A DNA stretch of 64,000 bases, from NCBI GenBank assembly GCA_018650795.1, contig JABIFG010000118.1:17731-81730 (forward strand), written 5' to 3'. Both the position numbers and the translations under genes were made by a program. Origin of the DNA: Fidelibacterota bacterium (GTDB lineage Bacteria > Fidelibacterota > UBA8477 > JABMPR01). Under the pieces are notes generated by a model. That model made no database searches. It was not told the origin of the DNA and saw only the letters and a list, made by a program, of their open reading frames with translations. Below are positions 1,675 through 54,558 of this stretch, piece by piece; position 1 is the first letter of the stretch, and each line of letters begins with the position of its first letter.

Positions 1675-1677
1675 ACT

Positions 1678-4341: not shown

Positions 4342-4350
4342 AGAAGCTAA

Positions 4351-5550: not shown

Positions 5551-5565
5551 ATATCCCGGCTGATT

Positions 5566-7139: not shown

Positions 7140-7146
7140 CAGCCTT

Positions 7147-9464: not shown

Positions 9465-9484
9465 CCCGCCTAGCTTCTGAATCT

Positions 9485-10165: not shown

Positions 10166-10244
10166 ATTTTTCGAAAATGATACCGACCTGAGATTTTACA
10201 TGTTATCTTGGTCTACAATTTTAATGCAATAGAAATCAAAACAA

Positions 10245-11594: not shown

Positions 11595-11614
11595 TAAATA
11601 ACACAGGAGGAATT

Positions 11615-12589: not shown

Positions 12590-12601
12590 GGTAATATCCT
12601 G

Positions 12602-13099: not shown

Positions 13100-13119
13100 G
13101 ATAATATAGATATAAAAAA

Positions 13120-13147
13120 AGGCTGAGTCTAACTCAGCCTTTTTTTA
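13120..13147. terminator. Bidirectional rho-independent terminator between convergent genes
   Basis: AGGCTGAGTCTAACTCAGCCT hairpin flanked by an A7 run on the left and a T7 run on the right. Confidence 0.6.
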
Positions 13148-13166
13148 TACCTATTATGCAAAAGAA

Positions 13167-14432: not shown

Positions 14433-14471
14433 GGGTGATTCTCCGTATTGAAGTTTTAATTTTTATGAAAA

Positions 14472-15311
14472 TTACATTTCCTGTCTGACAAAGTCGACCC
14501 AGACAGGTAGGCTGGTCACATCTTGTATTTCCTTGGCATAGGTTTCGGCATCTTTTGATTCCTGAAAATTTCCTACGCGCAGACGATAATATATTTCGTC
14601 TCTATCCTTGAAGAATGCTCTTTGGATGTAACTGTCGATGCCATATTTATCCTGTAGATCACGGGACGCAGATTGTGCTTCGTCAAGCGAAGGCCAGGAT
14701 GAAACTTGGATAGTGTATGTTCGGGCAGCCAGTGGAATCAAATTCCCACGACTGGTTAGCGCAGGTTTTGATTTTGTGGTTTTTCTTCTTTTAACAGCAC
14801 TTTTGCGCGTTTTGGTAGTTTCACCAGGGGATTTCATCTTTGAGAGGTATCGTCGTTGGACGCCATCATCTGTGAGACTTACAGAAGGTGTATCTGCAAC
14901 CGTTGTATCCTCAGTTTGAGCTGCCTCAAAGAGATGATCAGGTAATTCACCTTCCACAACGGTATCGTCTTCACTCATAACTATATCATAATAATAGTTG
15001 GTCTGTTCAGTCTCCCCATCAATAGTGACTTCCAGAACCACATCGTAAGACCCGGCAAAATCCGGCAAAAATGAAACTAAATCAAGCGTATCAGAAGGCA
15101 GAAAGCCAAGCAATTTGCTGCTGTCGGGGAGTTGGGCAAAAATCCAGTTTACTTGCTGTCCTTCGACAGATTCTTCAACTTGGAGGGTAATATATTCACC
15201 CAGTTTGACCTCTTCGCGTCCAAATCGGCTATTCCACATGTCGCAGTTGACGATAATGCTTAGAACAATCAGAATCAATAAAGCGCGCTTAAATAGAACA
15301 TTATTAGTCAT
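14472..15311 (-). CDS. SPOR-domain (peptidoglycan-binding) lipoprotein
   Basis: Lipoprotein signal (LSIIVNC), an acidic linker and a basic stretch, then a C-terminal YTIQVSSWPSLDEAQSASRDLQDKYG...YRLRVGNFQSKDAETYAKEI segment matching the SPOR fold pattern. Confidence 0.5.
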   Translation of the reverse strand: MTNNVLFKRALLILIVLSIIVNCDMWNSRFGREEVKLGEYITLQVEESVEGQQVNWIFAQLPDSSKLLGFLPSDTLDLVSFLPDFAGSYDVVLEVTIDGETEQTNYYYDIVMSEDDTVVEGELPDHLFEAAQTEDTTVADTPSVSLTDDGVQRRYLSKMKSPGETTKTRKSAVKRRKTTKSKPALTSRGNLIPLAARTYTIQVSSWPSLDEAQSASRDLQDKYGIDSYIQRAFFKDRDEIYYRLRVGNFQESKDAETYAKEIQDVTSLPVWVDFVRQEM

Positions 15312-15337
15312 TTCTGCCTCCTGATACAGGCTAATAA

Positions 15338-15766
15338 TTAGAGATTAGAGGCGATAATTTCAGCCTCACTGAAGAAAAATGCAATCTCTTTCTCAGCATT
15401 CTCATCTGAGTCAGATCCATGAACAGCATTTCTGCCCTTATTCTCTGCATACATTTTACGAATTGTGCCATCAGCAGCATCGGCTGGATCGGTCGCACCA
15501 ATGGCGTCTCTCCAGGCCTGAACTGCGTTATCTTTTTCCAGTGCCATAACAAATGTTGGACCAGAGGACATGAAGTCAACCAGCTCACCATAGAAGGGGC
15601 GTTCTCTGTGTACAGCATAAAATGATTCAGCTTGCGCCCGCGTAATCAAAGTCAGACGACCCCCTTTAATCTCAAATCCAGCCTGTAGTGTAGCATCGAT
15701 GACTTTTCCAAGCTTGCCCGATGCAACTGCATCAGGTTTTATCATTGCGAATGTTTTGTTACCCAA
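15338..15766 (-). CDS. ndk: Nucleoside diphosphate kinase
   Basis: KTFAMIKPDAV, NAVHGSDS and the active-site His region. 142 aa. Confidence 0.9.
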   Translation of the reverse strand: MGNKTFAMIKPDAVASGKLGKVIDATLQAGFEIKGGRLTLITRAQAESFYAVHRERPFYGELVDFMSSGPTFVMALEKDNAVQAWRDAIGATDPADAADGTIRKMYAENKGRNAVHGSDSDENAEKEIAFFFSEAEIIASNL

Positions 15767-15823
15767 AATCTTTACTCCTATTTCATTATATGTGTCTTGC
15801 TGAGCCTGTCGAAGTATGACCCA

Positions 15824-16696
15824 TTATTTGTTTAAAATTTCTTCCATGAGTTCACCAATTCCGGCAGGGCTTTCAGAAACAGCAATACCTGCGGCTTTAA
15901 GTGCTGCGATTTTATCCGATGCAGTTCCTTTGCCTCCAGAAATGATTGCGCCTGCATGACCCATACGACGTCCCGGAGGAGCCGTAGTACCAGCAATAAA
16001 TGCCACAATTGGTTTGGTGAAGTTTTTTTGTGCCCATTCGGCAGCTTCTTCTTCAGCTGTTCCACCGATTTCACCAATCATAACCACAGCATCCGTACCT
16101 TCATCCCTGTTAAAAAGATCAAGGAGGTCGATAAAGTTTGAGCCAATGATAGGATCACCACCGATACCGATACAGGTTGACTGTCCGATACCACGTGAGC
16201 TCAACTGATGAACGGCTTCATAGGTCAGAGTTCCACTTCTTGAAATGACTCCCACCTTACCCTGCTGATGGATAAAACCGGGCATAATACCAATCTTACC
16301 AGCTCCAGGTGAAATAACACCCGGGCAGTTTGGACCAACCATGCGCGTTTTCTTGCCAGCCATATATTCATGAACCTTAACCATGTCTGCTGTCGGGATG
16401 CCTTCAGTGATACAAATGACCAGATCCAAGTCTGCATCGACAGCTTCCATGATGGCATCAGCCGCAAATGGAGGGGGGACAAAGATGACGGAGGTGTTGG
16501 CTTGAGTTATGTTCTTGGCCTCTTGAACCGTATTGAAAATCGGTACACCAGCCTCAGTCTTTTGTCCACCTTTGCCCGGTGTGACACCGGCTACAACCTG
16601 GGTACCGTATTCTAACATCTGGGTAGTGTGGAAGGATCCTTCACTTCCTGTAATACCCTGAACAACAAGTTTTGTATCATTATTTACCAGAATCAT
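15824..16696 (-). CDS. sucD: Succinyl-CoA synthetase alpha subunit
   Basis: CoA-binding N-terminus (VQGITGSEG) and the phosphohistidine loop MGHAGAII. Confidence 0.9.
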
Positions 16697-16700
16697 GCGA

Positions 16701-17864
16701 TCACTCCTTGATGGCTGCAGTAACTTTTTCTGCAGCTTCAGCCAGACTTGTGGCTACAATAAAATCAATATCCGAACTAGCCAGAAGTTTGGCTCCTTCT
16801 TCTGCATTGGTACCAGCCAGTCTCACCACGATAGGTACATCCACCTTCACCTTTTCAAGTGCTAAAATGATACCCATTGCCACGCGATCACATCTGACAA
16901 TTCCACCAAAAATGTTTATCAATACAGCTTTAACATTGGAATCACTCATAATGATACGGAATCCATTCGAAACCGTGTCCGGGTTGGCAACACCACCAAC
17001 ATCGAGGAAATTGGCAGGCTCACCGCCGTATAATTTGATTATATCCATGGTACCCATGGCCAGGCCTGCGCCATTGACCATGCAGCCTACATTTCCATCT
17101 AATTTGATGTAATTGAGATTGTAGCTGCTCGCTTCAACTTCTGAAGGCTCTTCTTCGCTAAGATCCCGATACTCGAGTATATCTGAGTGTCTATATAGTG
17201 CATTATCGTCAAAATTCATTTTGGCATCCAGGGCCATGACATCACCACTACCGGTCACAACAAGAGGGTTGATTTCCACGAGTGATGCATCTGAGGCATT
17301 GAACGCATCCCAGAGAGCAAACATGAATTTGACTGCTTCTCTTACCTGGACACCCTCTAGACCCAAAGCATAAGCAAGCTTCCGAGCCTGGAAAGCCTGG
17401 AGACCAATACCTGGTTCTATCCATTCCTTGATGATTTTTTCTGGGGCTTCAGAGGCGACTTTTTCAATTTCCATACCACCTTCGATGGAAACCATAAAGA
17501 CGAACTGTCCCGTTTGACGATCCAGTACAATACCCATATACAGTTCTTTGGCTATATCGATGCCTTCTTCGACCAGCAAACGACCCACAGTTTTCCCGGC
17601 AGGACCTGTCTGATGGGTCACCAGTGTTTTACCTAAAATTTCGTTGGCGTACAGTGTGACTTCGTCAAGGTTTTTGGCAATTTTCACACCACCGGCCTTA
17701 CCGCGTCCCCCTGCATGAATCTGGGCTTTGACTACAAAGATATTTGAGTCAAGAGATTTGGCTACGCTTAAAGCCTCTTCTGCAGAAAAGGCGACACCAC
17801 CGTTGGGTACGGGGACATTGTATTTCCGAAAGATCTCTTTCGCCTGATACTCATGAATATTCAT
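16701..17864 (-). CDS. sucC: Succinyl-CoA synthetase beta subunit (ATP-grasp)
   Basis: [21 protein letters not shown]-terminus, [10 protein letters not shown], and the C-terminal ligase-CoA domain. 4-nt spacing to sucD. Confidence 0.9.
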
Positions 17865-17925
17865 GTATTACTTCCTCTTATTTGTCAGTGATCTCAAATT
17901 CATTGAGATCGTCATTATAAAATAA

Positions 17926-18891
17926 TCAATGCGTGATAATGGTTCCGTTTTGTCCTGAGGTATCTTTTTTGATACTCTCTATGCTGGTGATAATAACCTG
18001 CTTGCCGCCACCTTCCAGGAATTGGATGCTGGCTTCAATTTTTGGTCCCATATTACCAGGGGGGAAATGCCCTTGAGCCAGATATTGTTTCGCTTCAGCC
18101 AGAGTGAGATTTGCCAGAAGCTGTTCATTCTCTTGGCCAAAATTCAAGGCGACTCGTTCAATATTGGTAAAAATATACAATAACTCTGCACCAATCTGTG
18201 TCCCCAGAAGGGCAGAGGCTTTGTCCTTATCTATGACCGCATCCAGACCTTCAAGATTACCATCAATATCTCTAAAAGCCGGTACTCCACCACCGCCCAC
18301 TGCGATGACGATATGACCCAACTCAATGAGTTGACTAACAACAGATGAGTTGATGATATTGATGGGCTGGGGAGAGGGGACTACCCTGCGCCACTGGCCA
18401 TCGCTAATTGGCTTAATGTTCCAACCAAATTGTTCAGCTTTTTCGTGAGCCTCAGCTTCAGGAAGCGCAGTACCAATATACTTGGTAGGATCTTCAATGG
18501 ATGGGTCGGCTTTGTCAACCAATACCTGGGAGATCAGAGTAACGACTTTACGTTTGATCCCTTCCTCCCTGAGGCGGTTGAGCAGGGATTGTTCTATCAT
18601 GTAACCCATCCCACCTTCGGTATCAGCAACATTAATACCCAGAGGCAAATAAGGGAGTGAATCGGCCAACTGTTCAGTGCGTAATGCGGCATTGCCAACT
18701 TGAGGTCCATTACCGTGTGTGATTACCGGAATGATGTCTTGTTTTAAGAGATCAATAATGGCATCCAGACTTTTTCTAGTACGTTTAAACTGGGTAGTGA
18801 TCGAGTCCACTTCTCCCGGGGGAGAGATGGCATTACCACCTAAGGCTACGACTGCTTTTCGCAATAGTTTCTCCTTCAAAATTAAAAGCAA
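17926..18891 (-). CDS. arcC: Carbamate kinase
   Basis: Amino-acid-kinase fold: VVALGGNA, ITHGNGPQVG, and the C-terminal GGGVP motif. About 320 aa, typical of ArcC. Confidence 0.75.
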   Translation of the reverse strand: MLLILKEKLLRKAVVALGGNAISPPGEVDSITTQFKRTRKSLDAIIDLLKQDIIPVITHGNGPQVGNAALRTEQLADSLPYLPLGINVADTEGGMGYMIEQSLLNRLREEGIKRKVVTLISQVLVDKADPSIEDPTKYIGTALPEAEAHEKAEQFGWNIKPISDGQWRRVVPSPQPINIINSSVVSQLIELGHIVIAVGGGGVPAFRDIDGNLEGLDAVIDKDKASALLGTQIGAELLYIFTNIERVALNFGQENEQLLANLTLAEAKQYLAQGHFPPGNMGPKIEASIQFLEGGGKQVIITSIESIKKDTSGQNGTIITH

Positions 18892-18994
18892 AGTAATGTA
18901 TTTGCTGTATTATGAAACTCAACCCAAATCAAGCGATTCAGGCGATTTTGTTAGTTTAAAGGAGAACTAATATTGCTTGATAATATTGACGTAC

Positions 18995-31354: not shown

Positions 31355-32869
31355 ATGTCCGATGAGATCACTTTAAAAGAAAGTTATTTACGCATCCCCC
31401 TCAGTGCCTGGAAAATTATTCTCGGATTTACAGCCTTTCGTTTGTTCCTCGCCATCATCCTGCCTTTGACTCCTCAGGAAGCTTATTATTGGAGTTGGAG
31501 CAGGGATCTTGCTTTATCCTATTTTGATCATCCCCCTCTAGCAAGTTACAGTATCTGGATGACGACCCTGGTTTTTGGCCAAACTATTTTTGGGATAAAA
31601 TTAGCGGCGGTGCTCTGGTATCTGGCAATGAATGTTATCTGGGCATCAATGATCCAGGAAATGTTTGACAATTCACGGCAGACTTTCTGGACCTTGTTGG
31701 CCCTCAATGCTTCCATTGTATTCGAGCTGTATGGGTTTGTCATTACACCAGATACACCCCTCCTGTTCACCTGGACAGCCACAATTTATGCACTCTGGAA
31801 GCTTGTTCAGACCGAGAATCACAAATGGTGGTATGTAGCTGGTCTATTTATGGGATTGGCATGGTTGGGCAAATATTCAGGGATTATGCTGGTACCCTCT
31901 GTGCTTCTTTTTACTATCGTCTCAAAAAATCAACGCAAGTGGCTACTTACTCCACATCCTTACCTTGGTGTGGTTCTAGCGATCCTTGTGTTTTCACCAG
32001 TGCTCATCTGGAATGCCCAACATGATTGGATGTCATTTGCATTTCAGGGATCCCAAAGGGCTTCAGGGATGGGTCACTGGAAGGTGAAACATTTTGGAGA
32101 ACTATTGGGCTCGCAGTTTTTTATTTTATCTCCCTATTTGTTCGTGCTCATTTTCGCGACATTAATTCGGTATGGACGCAAGCTTTTCTCAGGTCTGGAG
32201 GACAAAATATTACTTCTCCTCAGCAGTGGTCTGGTCACATCGGTCTTCTTTGTTGCAGTAAGTTTTCGCAGTTTAGTTAAAATGAATTGGCTGGCTCCAG
32301 CTTACTGGTCTCTAGTCATTCTAGGGATATATCATCTCTTCCAATCACCTCATCGATTTAACCGTATGAGAGCAGGTATTTTCTCATCACTTATATTTCT
32401 GGGGATCGGTATCTCTGTTGTGGCTATTCCAAATGTACCCCTGGGAGAAGGAAATACCTGGAGTGGTTGGAAACAAGCAGCCCACGATGTGAATGCCTTT
32501 CAGGATTCACTAAGAAATGCGGGTGAATCTACCTTCATATTTAGTACTAATTATAAAGCAAGCTCGCTCCTGAAATTTTATTTACCAGGTCAACCAAGGA
32601 CCTATGCCCAGGATATTATTGGCAAACCAGCTCTTCAATTCGACATCTGGCCCAGGGGAGAAGATTTGAAGGGGAGAACCGGATTACTTGTGGTTGATAA
32701 TCGTCGTGAATATCGCTTCAAATCAAAAAAGATAACATCTTACTTCAGTGATGTGAAAAAGCTGAAGACTATCCGGATTGAAAACTTTGGGAAGTTGGTT
32801 CGGAAAATCGATATTTATCAATGCTCTGACTATAAAGGCACAGAAATAGGAAACAACTATGATCAATAA
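31355..32869 (+). CDS. GT-C fold membrane glycosyltransferase, ArnT/PMT-like (GT83/GT39 family)
   Basis: EAYYWSWSRDLALSYFDHPP is the hallmark first periplasmic loop of ArnT/PMT-type polyprenyl-phosphate-sugar-dependent transferases. At least 10 TM helices, then a soluble C-terminal domain. Confidence 0.65.
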   Translation: MSDEITLKESYLRIPLSAWKIILGFTAFRLFLAIILPLTPQEAYYWSWSRDLALSYFDHPPLASYSIWMTTLVFGQTIFGIKLAAVLWYLAMNVIWASMIQEMFDNSRQTFWTLLALNASIVFELYGFVITPDTPLLFTWTATIYALWKLVQTENHKWWYVAGLFMGLAWLGKYSGIMLVPSVLLFTIVSKNQRKWLLTPHPYLGVVLAILVFSPVLIWNAQHDWMSFAFQGSQRASGMGHWKVKHFGELLGSQFFILSPYLFVLIFATLIRYGRKLFSGLEDKILLLLSSGLVTSVFFVAVSFRSLVKMNWLAPAYWSLVILGIYHLFQSPHRFNRMRAGIFSSLIFLGIGISVVAIPNVPLGEGNTWSGWKQAAHDVNAFQDSLRNAGESTFIFSTNYKASSLLKFYLPGQPRTYAQDIIGKPALQFDIWPRGEDLKGRTGLLVVDNRREYRFKSKKITSYFSDVKKLKTIRIENFGKLVRKIDIYQCSDYKGTEIGNNYDQ

Positions 32870-43591: not shown

Positions 43592-46500
43592 CTACTTGGA
43601 GTCAAGAAATTTCAGAACTGAAGCCATGACCTTGTCCCTATTGGTTTTCGAGAGAATACTCTCAAAAGGGAATCCAAATACTACGATATTGGTTTCTCCA
43701 GTTGCGGCAATGGCTGCACTGGTGTTATTCTCAGCATAACGTAATATGGTATGTGCCTCTGGAGTTGCTGGTTCAATTGCATCAGGAGATTCCACCTTAT
43801 AGAGTGAGGGATGGTAACGAGTGTTGAACTCCAGGTCCTGAACAGTTTCCATCTGGAATATATCTTGGGTAACTACACTAAGTTTCCCCGTCTTGACGGC
43901 ATGATCAGTCCGAAATTTATACTTGAGGATATCCTCGCCAAATTGCATATCAAGGGAGTCATTCTCATTGTCAAATAGATCAAATCCAACATAGGCACCG
44001 CTGAGAAACAGGTTCCCTCCAGATTGGGTATAAGCACTGATTTTCTCCTGAAATGATTTTGGAAAACCCCGGAAATCCCTTGGGCTGAAATCCTTTGGAC
44101 CGGAAACCTCTTTTTCCTCACCAAATATCAAATCCAACAAAGTATATTTGTTTATATCCAGTTGCCCGCTCCAGATAGCCTCATCACTTGATGAAACAAA
44201 AGAATAGCCGGCCTCACGTAATGACTTTCCATGAAAATGGGGAAAATCAAAGCTGTTTCCAGGTATGAGGGTGGTTTCCATATCCCCGTAACTCGCACCA
44301 TGTCCTGGTTCATCATCATCTAGCCAGGGTGAAGCGGCCAGGAGATCATATTGGGAGCCGATATAGTTTATATCAAAGCCATCAGCGACACCTTCATCCC
44401 AGAGATCAACAAAGCCGAGATATTTGTCAGTTTCAATGGTACTGGCTGCAGAAATACGATCAAAAGCATTCACAATCAGCACAGGTGCTTTGTCTCCGCC
44501 CATATTACATACCGAAAGAATCTCGGAGGGAAAACTTTCACCCCCAGCATTGAGGGCAGTCACTTTGTAACTGTAAATGATGCCTTCTTCCAGGTTAGTG
44601 ATATCTAGATGGGGAGCATCTACGACGATACCATTGTCGAATCCTTCATCTTCAACCCTTGTGTATACCATATACTTTTCAGGGGTGGCTGTACTCTCCA
44701 ATGGATCTTCCACCGCTTGCCACTGAAGATTCAGTTCACCGGTTTCCGCAAAGGTCGCCTGAAAATGTGATACAGGCAGGGGTTGGATTACATACTCAAG
44801 ATTCCACTGGGTGGAAATGTATCTGACCATGGCTTTATAGATAGATCGACTTGCATCAAATTTGAATCGTGGATCATTGGCGAATTTCATATCCAAAAAG
44901 TTGTGATGGGAGAGGAGCTCCAGCAATACTGAGGGTACGTTGGGTCTATAAGCCTCACTATATCCCCGATCCCAGAGCATTCTACGGGTCCAGGTTGGAT
45001 CATATTTGGCGCGTATGTCATTCACAATCTGAGTTTGGAGAATATCAGCCAGATCCCGATTGGTCATGCGTGACATCGAATCTGGAAAAATTTCGGTCTC
45101 CTCAGAGTCCTCGGTACTATATATAGAAAGCGTGCCGACAACCGTATCATTGCGTGTAAATCCAGCATCTGTATGAAAGGCAAAGGAAAGATCTATGGGA
45201 ATTTTTAATCCGGGAGCCTGACGGTCAAGATTGGGTCCAAAGGGAGCTCCCCGGAGATAATTGACCCACTCAGCCCGGCATTGATAATCATCTTTATAAT
45301 CACTTTCATCTGCATTCAAATTATAAACCAGGGTATCCGGCATTCCAGCATATTGAAGATAGTAACGCGCTGCCTCTGTAAATCGGGGTCGTCCACTGAC
45401 CTGACCTTCTCGAGCAATATTACCAATTCCACCACCAAATCGAATCGCATCAGCGCTAACATATCGCCCCGATTCAGTACTCTTATTGGTTAATTCTACC
45501 CGATGGATATCTGCATTTAGTGCCTGATTGAAGTCAAAGGTGCCCAGATAGATCCAGGTTTTACCACCGATCTGCTGATTTACTAAAAATTCAGTTTGTC
45601 CACCAGTATGGAATACGGTGTAATGAGCATCCGTCACATTGCTATCAGCAGCACTATAGGTGATATAGACAGCATATTTGCCTGCTTCTGGAAGACTGGG
45701 TATCCATCTTATTTTGGCACTGCCGCTAGTGTCTGCCTTGATGTTTCGAGACGTTCCCATAAAAAAGGGATTATCTCCAGAGGCATATGGAGGGGTTCCA
45801 ATGGCGAATCCAGACTCAGCTGATGTTTCCCATTTGTGTAATTTGGAATCATACTCCTGGTAGCCTTGCTTTACATCAGGAGTATTGTTATCAATGATCA
45901 CTTCGTTAGTCTGTAGATCACGCTCCCGAGGCATAAAGACTTGAGCACCAGCATTTTCCAACATGGGAACCAAATAATTGAGAGTAAAGGACATGGGCAG
46001 GAGGTCTTCAACAGTTTGAAAAACTCGAGCTCTTTGCCATTCCCAGCGCTGGAGCTTTTGCTCATAATACCAACCGTGGCTATGCCACAAGGCTATATTG
46101 CGGTTATAGAGGCCGGCAGATGGTTGCCATTTATGGCTCAGGTTACGAACCAGGGGGAGGGATCTGATCTCGGGAGCAGGCATACGACTTTGGTCATAGC
46201 TGCGTTTACTGCCACGGAAATAGTTAGGAACGAGAGCTTCAATTTCATGATCAACAGAGTAAATCTTTAAATTGTAATCTTTGAATTTTCTACCCAGAGA
46301 TGCTTTCAGACTTAAATGGATGTCTTTGACCAGCTTTTCACGGACGGGGATGTTGGCAAAATTCCGACTAAAATGAACCTCAATTTGCTTTGAGTCAGAA
46401 TTTATAATGATTGTGTCAATTCTGGTGTATTTATCCAGCCTCAGATGCGAATCCTCTTTTGTACTGGAGTCAAGAAACTGTTCCACACTCTGGTGAGCTT

Positions 46501-46633
46501 TCCTAGTCACACGATCCATATTTGAATAATCATAACGGGTTTTTCCAGGCTTACTGGATGTGCAGGTAATTAGAAATGATACAAACAGTAGCGTGAGAAA
46601 CTTTTGTGAAATAGACATAATTGAGCGCTCCAT
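43592..46633 (-). CDS. Large lipoprotein with a split MurNAc-L-Ala amidase-like (Amidase_3-like) fold, an FN3 domain and a C-terminal class-I glutamine-amidotransferase-like domain
   Basis: Lipobox FLITC. LENAGAQVFMPRERD, AFHTDAG and VLLELLSHHN mirror the G..V.LTR.D / H.DA / LVE.GF.SN motifs of Amidase_3. YTRVEDEGFDNG...YSYKVTALNAGGES has an FN3 pattern. The C-terminus is ThuA/GATase1-like (VVFGFPFESI). All assignments are motif-level only. Confidence 0.45.
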   Translation of the reverse strand: MERSIMSISQKFLTLLFVSFLITCTSSKPGKTRYDYSNMDRVTRKAHQSVEQFLDSSTKEDSHLRLDKYTRIDTIIINSDSKQIEVHFSRNFANIPVREKLVKDIHLSLKASLGRKFKDYNLKIYSVDHEIEALVPNYFRGSKRSYDQSRMPAPEIRSLPLVRNLSHKWQPSAGLYNRNIALWHSHGWYYEQKLQRWEWQRARVFQTVEDLLPMSFTLNYLVPMLENAGAQVFMPRERDLQTNEVIIDNNTPDVKQGYQEYDSKLHKWETSAESGFAIGTPPYASGDNPFFMGTSRNIKADTSGSAKIRWIPSLPEAGKYAVYITYSAADSNVTDAHYTVFHTGGQTEFLVNQQIGGKTWIYLGTFDFNQALNADIHRVELTNKSTESGRYVSADAIRFGGGIGNIAREGQVSGRPRFTEAARYYLQYAGMPDTLVYNLNADESDYKDDYQCRAEWVNYLRGAPFGPNLDRQAPGLKIPIDLSFAFHTDAGFTRNDTVVGTLSIYSTEDSEETEIFPDSMSRMTNRDLADILQTQIVNDIRAKYDPTWTRRMLWDRGYSEAYRPNVPSVLLELLSHHNFLDMKFANDPRFKFDASRSIYKAMVRYISTQWNLEYVIQPLPVSHFQATFAETGELNLQWQAVEDPLESTATPEKYMVYTRVEDEGFDNGIVVDAPHLDITNLEEGIIYSYKVTALNAGGESFPSEILSVCNMGGDKAPVLIVNAFDRISAASTIETDKYLGFVDLWDEGVADGFDINYIGSQYDLLAASPWLDDDEPGHGASYGDMETTLIPGNSFDFPHFHGKSLREAGYSFVSSSDEAIWSGQLDINKYTLLDLIFGEEKEVSGPKDFSPRDFRGFPKSFQEKISAYTQSGGNLFLSGAYVGFDLFDNENDSLDMQFGEDILKYKFRTDHAVKTGKLSVVTQDIFQMETVQDLEFNTRYHPSLYKVESPDAIEPATPEAHTILRYAENNTSAAIAATGETNIVVFGFPFESILSKTNRDKVMASVLKFLDSK

Positions 46634-46680: not shown

Positions 46681-47418
46681 TTAGTTAGAGGCGGCTCTAG
46701 AAAATAATACATACCCCAATGTGACACCCAAACGATATCCTGACCAATCTGGACTGACTTGCTTATTGTTGACACGCAGAATCGCATCTGAATTATCCTT
46801 TAAGTGGAATGGTTTTGAAAAAGTCAAATGATAGCCACCATCAATGGATATTGATAATCTCTGTACCTTGTATGCAAGTGATATCATTGGGTCGAGACCA
46901 AGGCCCATTGCCACTAACTCATTTTGAGTTACTTCACTTTCATCAAGAAGAATGATCTCATCCAGCATGTCGAGGGTGCTCCACAGAAAGCTTATAGGCA
47001 TGTTGAAGGTAGAGCTAAAACATTTGGAGGCCATTATTGTCCAGGTATTGGAAAGTCCAAATCCATTACAGGTAAGAATCTGATCCGAGCTAATCTCTCC
47101 AGAATAATCTGCGTAGTGAATACGGCCACCGGTCTCCATATGCATCCAGGAAAGCCCCCCTGTGTATCCTTGACTGAATCTGTGGAGGACTTCAACCCTT
47201 GAAAAATAGAAATCTGGGAAATTAGAAGTGATTTTAACAGGGACAGACATGCCTTTCAACTCTGCAATCACCTCTGTTTGTAGATTGTGCAAACCGGGCA
47301 TGTTATAATGACCCTGACCCCCTTGGATACGGAATTCAAGATTTGCAGAATGGGCGCTGGACATTAAGCAGAAGCAGCAAAACAGAATATTTCTCAGGAC
47401 ATTCCTATGATCAATCAT
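46681..47418 (-). CDS. Hypothetical secreted protein (possible outer-membrane beta-barrel)
   Basis: Signal peptide ILFCCFCLMSSAHSA. Alternating beta pattern. No motif recognised. Confidence 0.35.
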   Translation of the reverse strand: MIDHRNVLRNILFCCFCLMSSAHSANLEFRIQGGQGHYNMPGLHNLQTEVIAELKGMSVPVKITSNFPDFYFSRVEVLHRFSQGYTGGLSWMHMETGGRIHYADYSGEISSDQILTCNGFGLSNTWTIMASKCFSSTFNMPISFLWSTLDMLDEIILLDESEVTQNELVAMGLGLDPMISLAYKVQRLSISIDGGYHLTFSKPFHLKDNSDAILRVNNKQVSPDWSGYRLGVTLGYVLFSRAASN

Positions 47419-49315
47419 TTAAAGCCTCAATGGGCAGTACATATCCCGATGTGAATATTTTATCGTCCCAGAGTTTATAGGCACCTGAACTAATAGAAAT
47501 ATCGTGAATGGCTATTCCCGATATGGGATCATATATCATATATCGATCGCTACTCAGGAATTTGCCACCAACATAGCCTGTGGTGGGATCATAATTAGGT
47601 CTTCGAAGTTTTTCAGATGTTAGAACCTGATTTACAATGCCCATATCGGCGGCACTATAAACGGTCATTGTCTGGTCATCTGCTACAATAAATTGATTGC
47701 CATCGCCAACAAAAATACTCTCGATCCACTGACCTAAATCTGCTCGCCCTGCTAGATGATTAGAGCTCACAACATAGAGCGAGTCATAGGCAATTAAATA
47801 TTGACCATTTGCAGATATTTTGGCAGAAGTTGAATAAGCATAATTTGGATTAATTACTTGAATGGGGTCATTCATTTGGATGACCACAACGCCCATACCC
47901 CAATTCACATTGTCACTATCTCGGTAGCTCGGAAAGGTAATCCAGTTGTTATTTGAGACGGAGATATCATCCATTGCCCGACCATTATATCCCAGGAGTG
48001 AGCTGGTGGTCCAGGTTTGCAGAATGCTCAAGGATAGGGGGTCCACGCTTTGGAGATAACCGACATCATTCGAATAACTCATTATGTAGGCCAATTGTCC
48101 GTCTGGAGAGATCCCAAATTGGCGATAACTGGCTTCTGACATTATGTTAAGTGAATCTAAAATTGAATAGGACTCAGCATCGTGACGATAAAGTGTCTGG
48201 CCATAGAGTCGGTAAAACGATAATTGGCTCTCACTGAATTGTAAGCTTCCGGGATGGGGGAAGGTCTCACCCAGAAAGGCGTCAATATTGCTATGCAAGT
48301 TATCCGACCAGATCGAATTGTTTTTCAGGCCAACTTCCAGAATGTACTCAATCGGGTCTCCAAACCAGGCATCGATATCAAGATAGCTTGTATCATTAAT
48401 GTTATCAGTAGTATAGATGGAATTATCATCCACCTGGATGCTATAATGAGCAAAATTTTGTGGATAATGACAAGGGGACCATTGCAAGTGTATTTCGTTA
48501 TAGTTTGTGTCGTTGGAAAGATAAAAAGTGGGTGCCGACTCTTCATAGAACATGAATTCACCTAGAGCTGATCCCAGTTCAGAAATAATATTCACTCGAT
48601 AATAGGCTGGTCCGCCCAGGTATGTCGTGTCCACTATACTCGTTTGATTGATATCAAATGTAGAAGTAAGATGGCGTTCATCAATAAACCCACCAGAAGT
48701 AGGGTGGCCTTTGTCAATATTGTATCTGACAAACCCATTTCTATTAAATTTTTCCCAGTTGATAACCATATCACCAGATTCAGTCGAAATGTTAAGCATA
48801 GCCAATGAGATGGGGGGTCGATTATCAATGATAAGCGTGTATTCACGTTCAAACATGAGATATTCCAGACCGGCAATATCTGCCAGACTATTTGAACCTG
48901 AGCTTGAAAAGCCTTTAATGATTAAACTAAGTGTATCTGAAACGTAATTATTTGTATAGAATGAATAGGAGCCGGTAGGTTGACTAAAACTATAAATTGT
49001 CACATTCTCTAGCAGAAGTTCTCCTTCATAAAAATTTCGCCCCAAAAGGTCGAGATTATAGGCAAGAGTGGCCTGGCCCCAAACGGTAATGGTGTCTGGG
49101 GATCCATTCAAGTCAATATAAAGAACGGGTTCGGGTATCGTTTTGTCCTGAAAATTGCTTCCTGTCGGAGAGTATTTACACTGGATGAGTAAAAAACTGA
49201 TGACAATCAGGACAAAAATAGGTTGAAGAATTCTTGAATTCATTTGCTGGAGAGTGACTTTGACATTGGGAAAGCGAGAGGATTTCGCTGTTTTTTCACA
49301 CAAAATATTTTTCAA
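47411..49315 (-). CDS. Hypothetical Asn/Ser/Tyr-rich lipoprotein with Ig/FN3-like and beta-propeller-like segments
   Basis: Likely lipobox LLIQC after an internal Met. AT-rich. No recognisable catalytic motif. Confidence 0.4.
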   Translation of the reverse strand: MKNILCEKTAKSSRFPNVKVTLQQMNSRILQPIFVLIVISFLLIQCKYSPTGSNFQDKTIPEPVLYIDLNGSPDTITVWGQATLAYNLDLLGRNFYEGELLLENVTIYSFSQPTGSYSFYTNNYVSDTLSLIIKGFSSSGSNSLADIAGLEYLMFEREYTLIIDNRPPISLAMLNISTESGDMVINWEKFNRNGFVRYNIDKGHPTSGGFIDERHLTSTFDINQTSIVDTTYLGGPAYYRVNIISELGSALGEFMFYEESAPTFYLSNDTNYNEIHLQWSPCHYPQNFAHYSIQVDDNSIYTTDNINDTSYLDIDAWFGDPIEYILEVGLKNNSIWSDNLHSNIDAFLGETFPHPGSLQFSESQLSFYRLYGQTLYRHDAESYSILDSLNIMSEASYRQFGISPDGQLAYIMSYSNDVGYLQSVDPLSLSILQTWTTSSLLGYNGRAMDDISVSNNNWITFPSYRDSDNVNWGMGVVVIQMNDPIQVINPNYAYSTSAKISANGQYLIAYDSLYVVSSNHLAGRADLGQWIESIFVGDGNQFIVADDQTMTVYSAADMGIVNQVLTSEKLRRPNYDPTTGYVGGKFLSSDRYMIYDPISGIAIHDISISSGAYKLWDDKIFTSGYVLPIEALND

Positions 49316-49434: not shown

Positions 49435-50151
49435 TTAGCCGCTTTTAATCCGAAATAAAATGGTCTGGCCAAAAGAAATTAAGGCAGCCATGAGTAAGCG
49501 AAACTTTTTGATTGAAACCTCCCCGGTTTGTCTTTCTTGATGGGGGATTAATGTTTCATAAATGCTACATTTTTTCAAATTTACCATACCTGAGATGATC
49601 AGGTTTGGCGCGAAGGTATCTGAGGGAATATTTAACAAAAATTTACTCACTGCAGAAACTCGCATCAACCTGAAAGGGGAGTTTACATCCCAAACGCCCC
49701 TAGCATAAAATAGTCGAATCACTGATCTTGAAATGAAGCTCACTACCCTGCGAGATAAGGCTTGAGACCGTTGGGACCTGCGCCCCAATAAAAAATCATA
49801 CTCCCCCCGATTTGCCCATAACTCGTTGAAATGTTTAGCTGACATCTCGCCATCAGAATCTGTTTGGAAAATCCAAGTGCTATGGAGGGCTTGGGTGTAT
49901 CCTTTAAGCAAGGTAGGTCCATGGCCACAATTTGGTGAGGCATGAATTTCCAACGATTTCATGTCCCTTGCTAATACATTCAGGATTTCAAGGGAATTGT
50001 CCGTAGAACCATCATTGTAAGCATGGATTCGATAGTTAAGACCGAGTTCCCCAAGAGTAGCGTCCCACTCCTTAAGCACCTCGGAGATAATTTCAGCCTC
50101 GTTGTACACGGGGACAATCAGAGCGAGTGTTTCAGCTTGGTTTTCCGTCAT
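49435..50151 (-). CDS. GT2 glycosyltransferase, polyprenyl-phosphate sugar synthase type (DPM1/GtrB-like, soluble)
   Basis: LIVPVYNEAEII, YNDGSTDNS and the DxD (TDSDGE) region. 238 aa without a C-terminal TM, like DPM1. Confidence 0.7.
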   Translation of the reverse strand: MTENQAETLALIVPVYNEAEIISEVLKEWDATLGELGLNYRIHAYNDGSTDNSLEILNVLARDMKSLEIHASPNCGHGPTLLKGYTQALHSTWIFQTDSDGEMSAKHFNELWANRGEYDFLLGRRSQRSQALSRRVVSFISRSVIRLFYARGVWDVNSPFRLMRVSAVSKFLLNIPSDTFAPNLIISGMVNLKKCSIYETLIPHQERQTGEVSIKKFRLLMAALISFGQTILFRIKSG

Positions 50152-51287
50152 TTGGTTTGGCTACTGATTTTATCGTATGTACTGAGAGCGGCCGCGATGG
50201 TCTGATCCATATCATAATATTTGTAATCTCCCAAACGACCACCAACGCAAAGATTCTCATGTTGAATGAGTTCTGCCTGGTACTTCTCAAGCAATGCTTT
50301 GTTTTGTGCTCCACCCAGCGGATAGGAAGGGTCATCTCCCTTGTCAGCGTGCGAAAACTCCTTAATTGTCAAGGTCTGACTATCAGGGTACACTTTCTCG
50401 GGGTGCAGATGCCGTGGTTCATGAATCCTGGTATAGGGAATCTGTTCTTCGGCATAATTCATCACAGAAGTTCCCTGGAAATCGCTTACCTCTCTGATTT
50501 TCTCCTCAAATGACAATCCACGCCATTCCAATCGTCCATATTTATATCCAAATAGCTTATCGATGGGACCGCTATAGATGATCTTTGCATCCTCGGCCAG
50601 TTCATCCCTGATTTCAAAAAAGTCAGTTTTCAGTTCAACCTGGATTCTGGGATTGGCCAGGAGCTTGTCAAATATTGGGGAGTAACCATGGATTGGAATA
50701 CCCTGCCAGGAGTCGAAAAAGTAGCTTTCATCATAATTGGTCCTAAACGGCAGGCGTTTTAGAATGGAGGCAGGGAGCTGTTTAGGGTCACAGCCCCATT
50801 GTTTGGCTGTATATCCCTTAATGAAGGCCTCATAAAGAGGATAGCCCATCATACTGATAGCTTTTTCTTCAAAATTGGAGGGCTGGTCAATACCCGATTT
50901 ATGTGCTTCCGTCTCAATAAAAGCAGTGACCTCAAAGGGTTTCAGGTTTAATCCGTAAAAGCTATTAATGGTTTCCAGATTGATGGGCATCTGGTAAACC
51001 TTATTCTTAAAGGTGGTGAGAACCTGATGACGATAGCCATTGAATTCAGTAAACCTATTGATGTATTTCCAGACCTCTGTATCACTAGTGTGGAATATAT
51101 GGGTGCCATAAAGATGATAGTGTATACCAGTTTCCGAATGGTCAACAGAATGGCAGTTTCCACCAGTATGATCTCGTTTTTCTATCACCAGGACGGGTTC
51201 ACCAAGATCATTTGCAATACGCTCAGCTATGACAGCACCAAAAATTCCGCTACCTACTATGACATATTTATAAGTTTGTGGGCTCAT
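50148..51287 (-). CDS. glf: UDP-galactopyranose mutase
   Basis: YKYVIVGSGIFGAV FAD motif and GGNCHS, with Glf-typical length and internal conserved Tyr/Arg region. Confidence 0.85.
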   Translation of the reverse strand: MSPQTYKYVIVGSGIFGAVIAERIANDLGEPVLVIEKRDHTGGNCHSVDHSETGIHYHLYGTHIFHTSDTEVWKYINRFTEFNGYRHQVLTTFKNKVYQMPINLETINSFYGLNLKPFEVTAFIETEAHKSGIDQPSNFEEKAISMMGYPLYEAFIKGYTAKQWGCDPKQLPASILKRLPFRTNYDESYFFDSWQGIPIHGYSPIFDKLLANPRIQVELKTDFFEIRDELAEDAKIIYSGPIDKLFGYKYGRLEWRGLSFEEKIREVSDFQGTSVMNYAEEQIPYTRIHEPRHLHPEKVYPDSQTLTIKEFSHADKGDDPSYPLGGAQNKALLEKYQAELIQHENLCVGGRLGDYKYYDMDQTIAAALSTYDKISSQTK

Positions 51288-51288: not shown

Positions 51289-52794
51289 CTACTGAAGATT
51301 TCTTACATATATTTGGAAGTATGAGCGATTGCCAAGCAGGTGATAGTCCTCTGAAACGAACTCGTATAACCGGTTTTTTTCAATATTACCCTCTTTGCTG
51401 TTCCAGATAAAAACCGCTGGAGGTGCCTTCTCCAAATCCGCCAGTAATCGCGACATCAGTTCGCTGACTTTTTTATTCTTCTTCTCTTTCAGAGGAAGAT
51501 TGTAGAATATTCCAGATGCTGCCCTTCTTTGACTGTAATAATAAACTCCCGATTCAGAGCCCCAGTAATAGATCGACTCATCCGGATTCGTCATGGCCTT
51601 GATTTCGAGGCCCATTTCCCAGGCATCGATAAATTGATCACCGTATTTCTCATGAGATAATTCAACTGGACTAAGTTTGAAGAATTCAACCTGATGATTG
51701 ATCATGGTCCCAAGAGCAACTGATATCAATGCACTTCCCAGGAGCAAACGCCAAACCCGATTTACTTTTAGTTCTTTAAAAATGTTGATGATCAGTAGAC
51801 TGGAATTGATGGTTAACATTGGAAAAAGGGTCTGATTATAGTGTGGATAATTACGACCGATACTTCCTATTTCAAATAGAACCCCAAGCGTCATTAAAAT
51901 GAAGAAGTAGTGAGGTGTTTGCATCTTTTTAGATCGTGAGCCGATAAAGAGCCAGGCGTAACCCAATAAAACGAGAATCCATATCCCATACAGGGATTGC
52001 GAGAATAAATAGGTGGGTCGAGAGAAAAATCCCCAAATATTCATAAGGAAATTTCCAGAATATTGACCGTTGTACACGATGAGTATATCCCAGTACTCTT
52101 GAAATCGACCGAGTAGTAGAGCATAAGCAAACATGGAGCACCACAGCAGTGGTACGGGGTACAAGATGGCCAGGCTCTGTTGGAAATATGTCTTTATATT
52201 GCGGTTCTCCTGGGATTGGTAAATCTGGAGCAGAATGTAGAATAGCATAGGTACGAGAACAAAGACTGCAACAGGTTTGAACATAGTTGCTATTCCCATA
52301 GCCCAACCCGCCAGGTGTAAATGCTTGAACCGGGGCATAGGTGTCTGCACCAGCGCCCATATGGCAACCAGCGTGAATAGATTTAAGAATATTTCTGTGT
52401 TGGGTTGGTTGGCCTGTAAATAGGCAGAATTTGAAGAGAGGACCCAAAATGACACACCTATCAGACCAGATTGCCAGCCTGAGATTTTGTCAAGAATTAA
52501 GTAAATCAAGAGGGTTGAGAGGATAGTTACGATAACCCATAAAAAAGTTAGTGATTGTTGTCCATAACCCCAGATGAGCTCAGACATTGCGAAAGTGATA
52601 TGAATACCTGGTGGTTTGTGATCCCACAGTTCTGTATATAGATGCTCTCCGGAAAGCAGAGCGTGGCCAATATATCCATAAGAAGTGAGATCTCTTTCCA
52701 GTGGTTCTTCCATTGAGTGCATTGCAGAGGCAAAAATAAATATAATGGCGAAAATAAAGATGAGCGCTGAGATAATATTTTTGGATTTAGTCAT
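51289..52794 (-). CDS. GT-C fold membrane glycosyltransferase (ArnT/PMT-like), 12+ TM
   Basis: LERDLTSYGYIGHALLSGEHLYTELWDHKPPG first-loop motif. Polytopic. 2-nt gap to glf. Confidence 0.6.
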   Translation of the reverse strand: MTKSKNIISALIFIFAIIFIFASAMHSMEEPLERDLTSYGYIGHALLSGEHLYTELWDHKPPGIHITFAMSELIWGYGQQSLTFLWVIVTILSTLLIYLILDKISGWQSGLIGVSFWVLSSNSAYLQANQPNTEIFLNLFTLVAIWALVQTPMPRFKHLHLAGWAMGIATMFKPVAVFVLVPMLFYILLQIYQSQENRNIKTYFQQSLAILYPVPLLWCSMFAYALLLGRFQEYWDILIVYNGQYSGNFLMNIWGFFSRPTYLFSQSLYGIWILVLLGYAWLFIGSRSKKMQTPHYFFILMTLGVLFEIGSIGRNYPHYNQTLFPMLTINSSLLIINIFKELKVNRVWRLLLGSALISVALGTMINHQVEFFKLSPVELSHEKYGDQFIDAWEMGLEIKAMTNPDESIYYWGSESGVYYYSQRRAASGIFYNLPLKEKKNKKVSELMSRLLADLEKAPPAVFIWNSKEGNIEKNRLYEFVSEDYHLLGNRSYFQIYVRNLQ

Positions 52795-52913
52795 ATTATG
52801 GATTTTTCAATTCTTAAATTTTGAAATAATTAACCTAAGTGTATATTCAACTCACAAAGGTGAATAGATTGCTAAAAACTTAATCGTGAAATTCTTTCCT
52901 TCCAAGTGATGAG

Positions 52914-54289
52914 ATGATGAAAGTAGTATTGGTAAGACCAAATTATGACAGCCACATAATAACGCCACCACTAGCGTTGGGCTACCTGTCGTCCTATTTG
53001 AAAAAAATGGAATGGATGTAAAAATATTTGATGGTTTACGTGACAATGTTAGTAATGCTGAACTTTTAGAATCAATCGTCGCCGAGACTCCAACCGTCGT
53101 TGGGATTACCTGTCTTACTGCATTTTATAAAGAGACCATCGAATTATCACAAATGCTCAAGGAAACGGGGCTGCGGGTTATTATCGGTGGTGTCCATCCA
53201 ACATTTCTTCCTCAGGAAACACTTGCTGAATCAGGGTGTGATTATGTCGTATTAGGTGAAGGAGAGATTGCTCTACTTAAGCTTCTTCAAAATAATTTTC
53301 AAAGTGATAGTATCGCAGGCGTTTATTCAATCAAAGATTTTGAGGACAGCAAGCCTGTAATTAAAAAAGGGAAAAAGATTGAGAATTTAGACGACATTCC
53401 ATTCCCAGATTGGGAGCAACTCAATCCCAATTTATATCCTAAAGCACCCCATGGGGCAATTGTCAAAAATTTTCCAGTCGCTCCAGTTATAACAACTCGT
53501 GGTTGTCCATATGAATGCACATTTTGTGCAAGTCCTAGCTTTTATGATCGCAAAATCCGGTTTAGATCACCAGAGAATGTTATCCAGGAAATTAAATATC
53601 TTGTTGATCAATTTGGGATTAGAGAAATCCACTTCGAAGATGATAATCTGACAATCAGACGTGGGCATATCGATAAAATCTGCGAACTTATTATCACAAC
53701 GGGAATCGAAATTAGTTGGGCGTGTCCTAATGGAATTAGAGCCGATAAAGTCGATGCAGACCTAATATCCAAGATGAAGGAAAGTGGTTGTTATTATTTT
53801 GCCTACGGAGTGGAATCAGCGGATCAACAGATTCTTTCTAATATTAAGAAACAGGTGAAAATTGAAACCATAGAGAAATCAATTGACCTTGCTTCCAAAG
53901 CGGGTATCTCATGTCAGGGATTTTTTATTTTTGGTCTGCCAGGGGAGACTGAGGAAACTCTCAATAAAAGTATTCACTTCGCGAAAAGGTCAAAGTTGGC
54001 AAGAGCTCAATTTCTGATCTTAGACGTATTGCCAGGTTCAGAATTGTGGGATACGCTCAAAGGTAAATTTGTCCCCAATTGGGATAAGAAAAGCTATAAG
54101 GAACCGGAGTGGTTGCCTGGAGAGCTGACCGATAAGCTGCTTATGAACGCTCAATCAAAAGCGTTCAGAGAATTTTATTTTAAATCTCCCCTGAGATTCC
54201 TGAAACTGGCACTTTCAATTAAACCCAGTCAAATAAGATTCTTAATTCACCGACTTCTAGATTATCGTATTTTTAATAAAACTGATTAA
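52914..54289 (+). CDS. B12-binding radical SAM protein; N-terminal 33 codons are in a different frame because of an A7 homopolymer (53001-53007)
   Basis: Tracked ORF 53012-54289 carries the CxxxCxxC motif (TTRGCPYECTFCAS) and cobalamin-binding domain. Frame 52914-53021 encodes MMKVVLVRPNYDSHIITPPLALGYLSSYLKK, the canonical start of the B12-binding domain. One extra A would fuse the frames (..YLKKNGMDVKIFDG..). Confidence 0.7.
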
Positions 54290-54483
54290 TTATTCTTGCC
54301 GCTAATACAGAAGTACGCCCCATCAAGCCATCCAAATTTCAGGAAGAATTAAATCAAATAATCCTCTCTACGTCCTCAGCGCACTTTGCGGTTAGGCAGT
54401 TTCGAGAAATTCATTTAATTGGTTGAAAAAAAGCTGAGAGTTGTATAAAACAAAAAATCCCACCAAAAGGCAGGATTTAATTG

Positions 54484-54558
54484 CGGGACCGACCGGGATC
54501 GAACCGGCGACCTCCGGCTTGACAGGCCGGCGTTCTAACCAAGCTGAACTACGATCCC
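54484..54558 (-). tRNA. tRNA-Asp (GTC)
   Basis: Reverse complement GGGATCGTAGTTCAGCTTGGTTAGAACGCCGGCCTGTCAAGCCGGAGGTCGCCGGTTCGATCCCGGTCGGTCCCG folds as a cloverleaf with anticodon loop CUGUCAA, a T-loop GGTTCGATCC, a 7-bp acceptor stem and discriminator G. CCA is not encoded. Confidence 0.85.

What the first reader, a model, noticed from the sequence alone, without database searches (positions are those of the whole stretch)
52914..53021. B12-binding radical SAM gene interrupted by a -1 frameshift at an A7 tract
The conserved N-terminus of the cobalamin-binding domain (MKVVLVRPNYDSHIITPPLALGYLSSYLKK) is encoded in a different frame (52914-53021) from the body of the gene (53012-54289). The two frames are joined only if the A7 run at 53001-53007 were A8. 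This could be a homopolymer sequencing error, a pseudogenising mutation, or a slippage-prone phase-variable site. The gene lies next to the glycosylation operon and tRNA-Asp, so an intact product could methylate or otherwise modify a glycan or lipid.
Basis: seen in the sequence. Interest (0 to 1): 0.55.

Follow-up and report, generated by a model that had tools for sequence, protein, structure and literature searches.

The report
Polymorphic A-tract frameshift in radical-SAM gene
A vitamin-B12-type radical SAM enzyme gene in an uncultured marine bacterium (Marinimicrobia, Saanich Inlet) is broken here by the loss of one A from an eight-A run; other assemblies of the same clonal population carry the intact eight-A version, so this is a real on/off length variant rather than a sequencing slip, but it is an ordinary kind of mutation.

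Summary
ORF 52914-53021 encodes the conserved N-terminus of a B12-binding-domain radical SAM enzyme. The body, 53012-54289, lies in the -1 frame. An A7 run (53001-53007) sits at the junction, and adding one A gives a 458-aa protein.

That protein exists. Other assemblies of the same Saanich Inlet Marinimicrobia population carry A8 and the intact gene (about 111 contigs). The 425-aa A7 form was called on 22 contigs.

An A8 contig is identical to the A7 window over about 61 kb except at this tract. Across about 250 kb of aligned near-identical loci there are 2 SNPs and 12 indels, and all the indels lie in the first 110 nt of this gene. Thirty-one other homopolymers never vary. One contig ends exactly at the seventh A, which is the branch point expected if both alleles are in that sample. 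The data are Illumina.

So the A7 allele is a genuine slippage-generated null allele segregating in a clonal population. It removes strand β1 and helix α1 of the cofactor domain. I found no sign of programmed recoding. Reversible, adaptive phase variation is possible but unproven. The enzyme's substrate is unknown; its gene neighbours suggest glycan modification.

The parts
52914..53021 (+). 5' fragment of the radical SAM gene: codons 1-31 of the true protein (β1, the conserved loop and α1 of the B12-binding Rossmann-like domain), then 4 out-of-frame codons (MEWM) and TAA
53001..53007 (+). A7 homopolymer, the site of the 1-nt deletion. It is A8 in the intact allele (codons K30-K31-N32 = AAA AAA AAT). 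It is the only position that differs between the A7 and A8 contigs over about 61 kb
53012..54289 (+). Body of the gene in the -1 frame (425-aa ORF from an internal Met34). It holds the rest of the B12-binding domain and the radical SAM core with the CxxxCxxC motif (C198, C202, C205 of the 458-aa protein)
53020..53024 (+). Second short A-run (A5). It is A6 in one further assembly (L082, JGI 3300025478) that also has A7. There the body returns to the first frame but behind an in-frame TAA
52795..52913 (.). 119-bp divergent intergenic region between the radical SAM gene and the PMT_2 gene; presumed promoters (inferred, not tested)
51289..52794 (-). GT-C type membrane glycosyltransferase (Pfam PMT_2), transcribed divergently from the radical SAM gene
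50148..51287 (-). UDP-galactopyranose mutase (Pfam GLF)
49435..50151 (-). Small family-2 glycosyltransferase (about 238 aa). The same type is a recurrent neighbour of homologues of the radical SAM gene in other phyla (22 of 81 loci)
54483..54558 (-). tRNA-Asp (GTC), downstream neighbour; several contigs break here

Best explanation
The window carries a genuine loss-of-function allele of a class-B (B12-binding-domain) radical SAM gene. Replication slippage removed one A from an A8 run that encodes Lys30-Lys31-Asn32. The intact A8 allele is the majority form in the same, otherwise clonal, Marinimicrobia population of Saanich Inlet, and the A7 allele coexists with it (about 17-25% of assemblies). 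In the A7 allele translation from the true start ends after 35 codons. Anything made from the internal Met34 lacks strand β1, the invariant loop and helix α1 of the cofactor-binding domain and should be inactive. Shown: the anatomy, the existence and frequency of both alleles, the absence of linked differences, and the site-specificity of the variation. Inferred: slippage as the mutational mechanism, inactivity of the truncated product, and coexistence of both alleles within single samples.
For: The A8 repair equals real proteins: P0121 (457 aa) on 93 contigs, P0123 (458 aa) on 14, P0001 on 1 and P0124 on 3. The 425-aa A7 product P0122 is on 22 contigs and the 378-aa product on 1. The index lists the A7 product in 55 blocks and the A8 products in 125+36. 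DNA: among the fetched loci, 11 independent contigs have A8 and 5 have A7. The A8 contig ERZ27237584:k141_18888 is identical to the window at 1-18976, 19148-40500 and 42917-64000 except for the tract. Over 249,683 aligned bases there are 2 SNPs and 12 indels; 11 indels are at 53001-53007 and 1 is at 53020-53024. Thirty-one other homopolymer tracts, including intergenic A7 runs with 16 and 9 observations and a T8 with 8, never vary (Fisher p about 3e-10). Contig L086 (Aug 2011, 200 m) ends exactly on the seventh A, the last base shared by both alleles, as expected at an unresolved de Bruijn branch. Reads are Illumina HiSeq 2000/2500, and both alleles occur in the JGI, ENA and NCBI assemblies. 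The lost N-terminus is invariant in the family and forms β1 (3-8) and α1 (20-31) in a confident model (pLDDT 91.6). It is the only gene in the 64-kb window that the homopolymer scan found to be interrupted in this way.
Against: No reads were inspected, so coexistence within a sample rests on contig break points. Many assemblies are re-assemblies of overlapping samples, so contig counts overstate independence. With no linked SNPs, one mutational origin cannot be told from recurrent switching. Only a few observations exist for other 8-nt tracts (13 in all), so a tract-length effect alone is not excluded. Inactivity of the truncated product is inferred from conservation and a model, not measured.
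Confidence: 0.82

Rival explanations
1. Technical artefact: all cells carry A8, and A7 is a homopolymer error of sequencing or assembly.
For: Homopolymers are the classic site of indel errors. One assembly (L082) shows an additional odd A5->A6 change 13 nt away. The contig counts include re-assemblies of the same reads.
Against: The reads are Illumina 2x150. SPAdes-style contig names report coverage of about 12-19x; at the low homopolymer indel rate I assume for Illumina (my knowledge), a consensus at that depth should not flip. A7 is recovered in the JGI, ENA (k141 and NODE contigs) and NCBI MAG assemblies. No length differences appear at 31 other tracts in the same loci, and all indels cluster in this one gene.
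Confidence: 0.07
2. Programmed recoding: the A7 gene is normally expressed as full-length protein by -1 ribosomal frameshifting or by transcriptional slippage on the A-run.
For: A -1 slip of tRNA-Lys on AAA AAA, or insertion of one A by RNA polymerase, would yield exactly the A8 protein (and sequence reading). A low-level leak of this kind is plausible on any A7 run (general knowledge).
Against: The majority allele is simply in frame, as are 78 of 80 homologous loci. No stimulatory RNA structure lies downstream (z = 0.03). The zero-frame context G AAA AAA is not a canonical X XXY YYZ heptamer and no Shine-Dalgarno-like stimulator lies upstream. To my knowledge, A7 is shorter than the runs (9 or more) known to give efficient transcriptional slippage.
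Confidence: 0.03
3. The 425-aa ORF from Met34 is the functional gene and the upstream segment is dispensable.
For: The 425-aa ORF is annotated as a radical SAM protein in NCBI MAGs and still scores for both Pfam domains. Its ATG overlaps the upstream stop (ATGGATGTAA), which could allow re-initiation.
Against: Nearly all of the 120 listed homologues cover 98-100% of the full-length protein, and the lowest three 93-95%. Residues 1-33 contain 7 invariant and 11 near-invariant positions and form the first strand and helix of the Rossmann-like domain.
Confidence: 0.03

Closest known systems
Simple-sequence-repeat contingency loci in surface-glycan genes of Campylobacter jejuni, Haemophilus influenzae and Neisseria (homopolymer ON/OFF switches; reviewed in PMC11868660, PMC8437040)
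   Same: A homopolymer inside the 5' part of an ORF whose length sets the reading frame. Both lengths are present in one population. The gene sits beside glycosylation genes.
   Different: The tract is a short poly-A (7/8) that codon usage alone predicts, not a long poly-G/C. Switching rate and reversibility are unknown. The host is a free-living marine bacterium. No evidence shows that the tract is maintained by selection.
Salmonella/Shigella gtrABC O-antigen glucosylation operons (GtrA flippase, GtrB family-2 transferase, GT-C transferase; my knowledge)
   Same: The window has the same three kinds of component: a small GT2 (49435-50151), a GT-C/PMT_2 (51289-52794) and a GtrA-like gene elsewhere (about 8973-9464). 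In enterobacteria such operons are switched on and off and alter phage sensitivity.
   Different: Here the variable gene is an adjacent radical SAM enzyme, not the transferases. The gtr switch is epigenetic (Dam/OxyR), not a repeat. No functional link between the radical SAM gene and the transferases has been shown.
Class-B radical SAM enzymes with solved structures: AprD4 (6fd2), TsrM (6wte), MgmA (9ccb), OxsB (5ul2), CysS (9n1b), TokK (7kdx)
   Same: Same two-domain fold: N-terminal Rossmann-like B12-type domain plus radical SAM barrel (Foldseek TM 0.66-0.76). CxxxCxxC motif present. AprD4 acts on a sugar.
   Different: Only 18-21% identity. All NCBIfam equivalog scores are far below cut-off. 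The substrate and reaction are unknown, as is whether cobalamin is really bound (AprD4's B12-like domain does not bind cobalamin, as I recall it).
dnaX-type programmed -1 frameshifting on A AAA AAG, and transcriptional slippage on A9+ runs (my knowledge)
   Same: A Lys-codon A-run at the junction of two frames; a -1 slip would give the correct protein.
   Different: No stimulators, no conservation of the split, and the in-frame allele is the common one.

Membership tests
Class-B (B12-binding-domain) radical SAM enzymes | Radical SAM core with a CxxxCxxC cluster motif | tested here: met
   Pfam PF04055 E = 1.4e-25. C198, C202 and C205 are invariant in 47 homologues.
Class-B (B12-binding-domain) radical SAM enzymes | N-terminal Rossmann-like B12-binding domain | tested here: met
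   PF02310 at 77 bits, above the 32.1 cut-off, for the repaired protein. The model shows a β-α-β domain. Top structural matches are AprD4, TsrM, MgmA, OxsB, CysS and TokK.
Class-B (B12-binding-domain) radical SAM enzymes | Actual cobalamin binding and use | not testable with these tools
   Needs biochemistry.
Named equivalogs (BchE, HpnJ, Sden_1168 P-methyltransferase, ladderane-type lipid rSAM, AprD4 family) | Score at or above the NCBIfam curated cut-off | tested here: not met
   Best scores 178 vs 481 (BchE), 170 vs 575, 162 vs 578, 152 vs 360 and 99 vs 500. This is an uncharacterised subfamily.
SSR-mediated phase-variable (contingency) locus | Repeat tract within the ORF whose length change switches the reading frame | tested here: met
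   A8 gives the 458-aa ORF; A7 gives a stop after 35 codons.
SSR-mediated phase-variable (contingency) locus | Tract-length variants coexisting in one otherwise identical population | tested here: met
   11 A8 and 5 A7 contigs with 0 linked differences over about 61 kb. A contig ends at the branch point. This is shown at the level of assemblies, not reads.
SSR-mediated phase-variable (contingency) locus | High and reversible switching rate (100-10,000 times the basal rate; PMC11868660) | not testable with these tools
   Needs read-level time series or culture.
SSR-mediated phase-variable (contingency) locus | Tract is unusual or maintained beyond chance | tested here: not met
   AAA makes up 65% of Lys codons and AAA-AAA is the commonest Lys-Lys encoding. 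Homologues at 74-75% identity have no Lys-Lys here.
Programmed -1 ribosomal frameshift site | Slippery heptamer in phase, a downstream or upstream stimulator, and a split conserved in orthologues | tested here: not met
   G AAA AAA in the zero frame. Downstream fold z = 0.03. Orthologues and the majority allele are single ORFs.

The most novel reading that the evidence does not exclude
The A8/A7 tract is a working contingency switch in a free-living, uncultured marine bacterium. Cells flip a B12-dependent radical SAM enzyme that decorates a surface glycan on and off. The two states would be held at intermediate frequency by fluctuating selection such as phage attack or cobalamin supply. This would explain why it is the only variable site in about 61 kb of an otherwise clonal population sampled over at least three years.
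Probability: 0.25. Interest if true: 0.6.

Novelty: new member of a known kind. Interest (0 to 1): 0.35.

Why it matters
For annotation, the 425-aa 'radical SAM protein' entries in several public Marinimicrobia MAGs are truncated products of a frameshifted allele, and the true gene encodes 457/458 aa. For biology, this is a clean, checkable case of a natural on/off polymorphism in an abundant oxygen-minimum-zone bacterium. It is the only difference seen over about 61 kb between the A7 window and an A8 contig. Public DNA, RNA and protein time series exist for this site (PMC5663217), so allele frequency could be followed through depth and season. If the frequency tracks phage, oxygen or cobalamin, it would extend contingency-locus behaviour to free-living marine plankton. 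If not, it is simply a segregating null allele of an accessory gene.

Tried and rejected
1. Two scans of metagenome contigs found nothing, one with a variable-gap pattern across both A-runs and one with the exact left flank. That collection evidently does not hold these contigs, so copies were obtained through exact-protein look-ups instead.

2. I tried dN/dS against the apparently divergent contig L091. The gene is identical there. L091 turned out to match the window exactly up to 56015 and to diverge only beyond that. It is therefore neither an independent strain at this locus nor evidence for the ancestral state.

3. I searched for a frameshift-stimulating RNA structure and found none. The promoter and terminator scan was uninformative.

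4. I scanned the whole window for other homopolymer-interrupted genes. The two flags were false alarms; the one at 11583 is the adjacent NfeD and FloA genes.

5. Literature searches for frameshifts in Saanich Inlet Marinimicrobia, for homopolymer or repeat-based phase variation in marine and free-living bacteria and for this radical SAM subfamily in glycan methylation found nothing specific.

6. The supplements of Lin et al. 2021 do not map the JABGVX/JABHYZ MAGs to samples, so the dates and depths of the A7 samples remain unknown.

7. Sequence search of the PDB gave only distant core matches.

Full report
**Observation**

ORF 52914-53021 (+) reads MMKVVLVRPNYDSHIITPPLALGYLSSYLKKMEWM*. ORF 53012-54289 (+) encodes 425 aa. 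The second frame is the first minus one. Exactly seven A (53001-53007, flanked by G and T) lie at the junction. Adding one A gives a continuous 458-aa ORF reading ...SSYLKKNGMDVKIFDG....

With the N-terminus restored:
- The Pfam B12-binding match lengthens from profile positions 36-120 (61 bits) to 12-120 (77 bits), and the Radical_SAM match is unchanged.
- In an alignment of 47 homologues (60-75% identical, many phyla), the segment lost by the frameshift contains invariant L6, R8, P9, T17, P18, P19, G23 and eleven near-invariant positions.
- Upstream-frame similarity stops at K31 and downstream-frame similarity starts at N32, so the lesion can only be in the A-run.

**The intact allele exists**

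The best database hit to the repaired protein is a 458-aa protein that differs from it by a single residue, T to K (P0001). Its contig (L081, an ENA assembly of the Aug 2012, 150 m sample) matches window 52251-54536 with one substitution and one gap: A8 instead of A7.

Exact-sequence look-ups gave these counts:

| Product | Allele | Contigs |
|---|---|---|
| 457 aa (P0121) | A8, intact | 93 |
| 458 aa (P0123) | A8, intact | 14 |
| 458 aa (P0001) and 457 aa (P0124) | A8, intact | 1 and 3 |
| 425 aa (P0122) | A7, truncated | 22 |
| 378 aa (P0002) | A7 + A6 | 1 |

The truncated product includes at least four NCBI MAG proteins. The index lists the products in 125+36 blocks (A8) against 55 blocks (A7). 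Source names identify the organism as Candidatus Marinimicrobia (Neomarinimicrobiota) from Saanich Inlet.

**The tract is the only thing that varies**

I fetched 26 near-identical loci from the JGI, ENA, NCBI and Logan collections.
- Eleven independent contigs carry A8 and five carry A7. One of those five (L082) also has A6 instead of A5 at 53020-53024.
- Three loci from one A8 contig (ERZ27237584:k141_18888) cover window 1-18976, 19148-40500 and 42917-64000. They are identical to the A7 window apart from the tract.
- Over 249,683 aligned bases there are 2 singleton SNPs and 12 indels. Eleven indels are in the A-run and one is in the A5 run 13 nt downstream.
- Thirty-one other homopolymers (A/T of 7 or more, G/C of 6 or more) show no length difference in any locus. 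They include intergenic A7 runs seen 16 and 9 times and a T8 seen 8 times (Fisher p about 3e-10).
- Contig L086 (Aug 2011, 200 m; 69.7 kb) ends with exactly seven A. That is the last base common to both alleles, which is where a de Bruijn assembler stops at an unresolved branch. A second contig, from JGI 3300072015, ends within a base of the same place.

The metagenomes are Illumina HiSeq 2000/2500, 2x150. Each source holds both alleles.

Dated samples with A8 span Sep 2009 to Sep 2012 at 120-200 m. I could not date the A7 samples.

**Interpretation**

Generic homopolymer noise would not hit one tract in 5 of 16 contigs and none of the other 31 tracts. It would also not flip a consensus at the 12-19x coverage written in the SPAdes-style contig names.

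I therefore read A7 as a real allele, made by slippage in an A8 run. It coexists with the intact allele in a strikingly clonal population. Intactness is the ancestral state because the family is otherwise encoded as one ORF: 78 of 80 loci from other genomes are uninterrupted.

The consequence is loss of function.
- A confident model (pLDDT 91.6) places β1 at residues 3-8, the invariant loop at 9-19, α1 at 20-31 and β2 at 35-40.
- A product started at Met34 would therefore lack the first strand and helix of the Rossmann-like domain.
- None of the 120 listed homologues covers less than 93% of the repaired protein, and nearly all cover 98-100%.

**Rival readings**

- *Programmed recoding.* A -1 slip or an inserted A in the mRNA would give the right protein, but programmed recoding is not supported. 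The common allele is in frame, there is no downstream structure (z = 0.03), the heptamer is not in canonical phase, and A7 is short for efficient transcriptional slippage (my knowledge). A low-level leak cannot be excluded.
- *True phase variation.* Fast, reversible, selected switching is possible but unproven. The tract is what codon usage predicts for Lys-Lys-Asn (AAA makes up 65% of Lys codons). It is not conserved in homologues at 74-75% identity. Without linked SNPs, one origin cannot be told from many.
  - Points in its favour: the allele reaches about 17-25% while no substitution in about 61 kb has risen above singleton level, and neutral intergenic A7 runs are invariant. This hints at selection or recurrent mutation.
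  - The extra A5->A6 change in L082 does not restore the ORF because an in-frame TAA remains. It looks like either further decay of an off allele or an assembly oddity.

**Function**

- The protein is a class-B radical SAM enzyme by domain content, motif and fold. The top structural matches are AprD4, TsrM, MgmA, OxsB, CysS and TokK at TM 0.66-0.76.
- It falls far below every NCBIfam equivalog cut-off, so its subfamily is uncharacterised.
- In the window it is transcribed divergently from a GT-C/PMT_2 transferase, UDP-galactopyranose mutase and a small GT2.
- In 80 homologous loci from other phyla the recurrent neighbours are further paralogues, a 350-aa radical SAM protein (23 loci), the same small GT2 (22 loci), sugar-nucleotide dehydratases, GT4, DegT aminotransferases and GLF.
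- Modification of a sugar or a lipid-linked glycan is therefore the best guess. It is an inference from context only.

**Verdict**

It is an ordinary kind of event, a homopolymer frameshift. What lifts it slightly above routine is the population evidence that the site is polymorphic and is the only variable position in a large clonal stretch. I score it as a new member of a known kind, with modest interest.

Noticed in passing
window 53020-53024; L082 about 9870: One assembly (JGI 3300025478, Ga0209576_1000036) has A7 plus A6 in the second small A-run. This puts the gene body back in the first frame but behind an in-frame TAA, and the gene caller then reports only 378 aa. It is either a second mutation in the off allele or an assembly oddity.
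   Followed up: partly
L086 position 1 (= window 53007); JGI 3300072015 contig (no DNA): Two long contigs terminate at or within one base of the last A of the tract. This is the signature of an unresolved A7/A8 branch in those samples.
   Followed up: partly
window 1-64000 versus L081-L106: Extreme clonality: assemblies from samples dated 2009-2012, and from several pipelines, are identical to the window over tens of kb. There are only 3 singleton SNPs (17478, 48707, 53700) in all the near-identical loci compared.
   Followed up: partly
L091/L085, junction at window 56016: Contig ERZ27245994:k141_25506 is 100% identical to the window up to 56015, then about 18% divergent from the start of the UvrD gene onward. 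It is either a chimeric assembly of two Marinimicrobia or a recombination break. L104 shows a similar step at 15824 (96% then 83%).
   Followed up: partly
L054 6070-6100; L018 about 7150: A 53%-identical homologue in another MAG (MFD03899.bin.3.172) is frameshifted at the homologous codon, about 30 (FLKEEWH* versus RKNGIDVRLIDG in the next frame), but not at a long homopolymer. Another homologue (L018) is frameshifted at residue 386. Two of 80 loci gives a base rate for broken copies in MAG contigs.
   Followed up: partly
L001-L080: Homologues of this radical SAM gene commonly occur as tandem paralogues (169 members in 81 loci), together with a 350-aa radical SAM protein without a B12 domain (23 loci). 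This suggests a multi-enzyme pathway of unknown product.
   Followed up: partly
window about 8973-9464 (-) and 31355-32869 (+): A GtrA-like gene (PF04138) and a second PMT_2 GT-C transferase lie elsewhere in the window. Together with the small GT2 at 49435-50151, these are the parts of a gtr-like three-component glycosylation system.
   Followed up: no
window 46681-49315 (-) and 43592-46633 (-): Two proteins downstream of the GT2 in the same minus-strand gene string (245 and 634 aa) have no Pfam match. The next gene encodes a 1008-1013-aa protein with Golvesin_C, fn3 and a weak amidase_3 match.
   Followed up: no
window 11583-11588: An A6 run where a +1 change would fuse two long ORFs. On inspection these are the adjacent NfeD and FloA genes, so it is not a frameshift.
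   Followed up: yes
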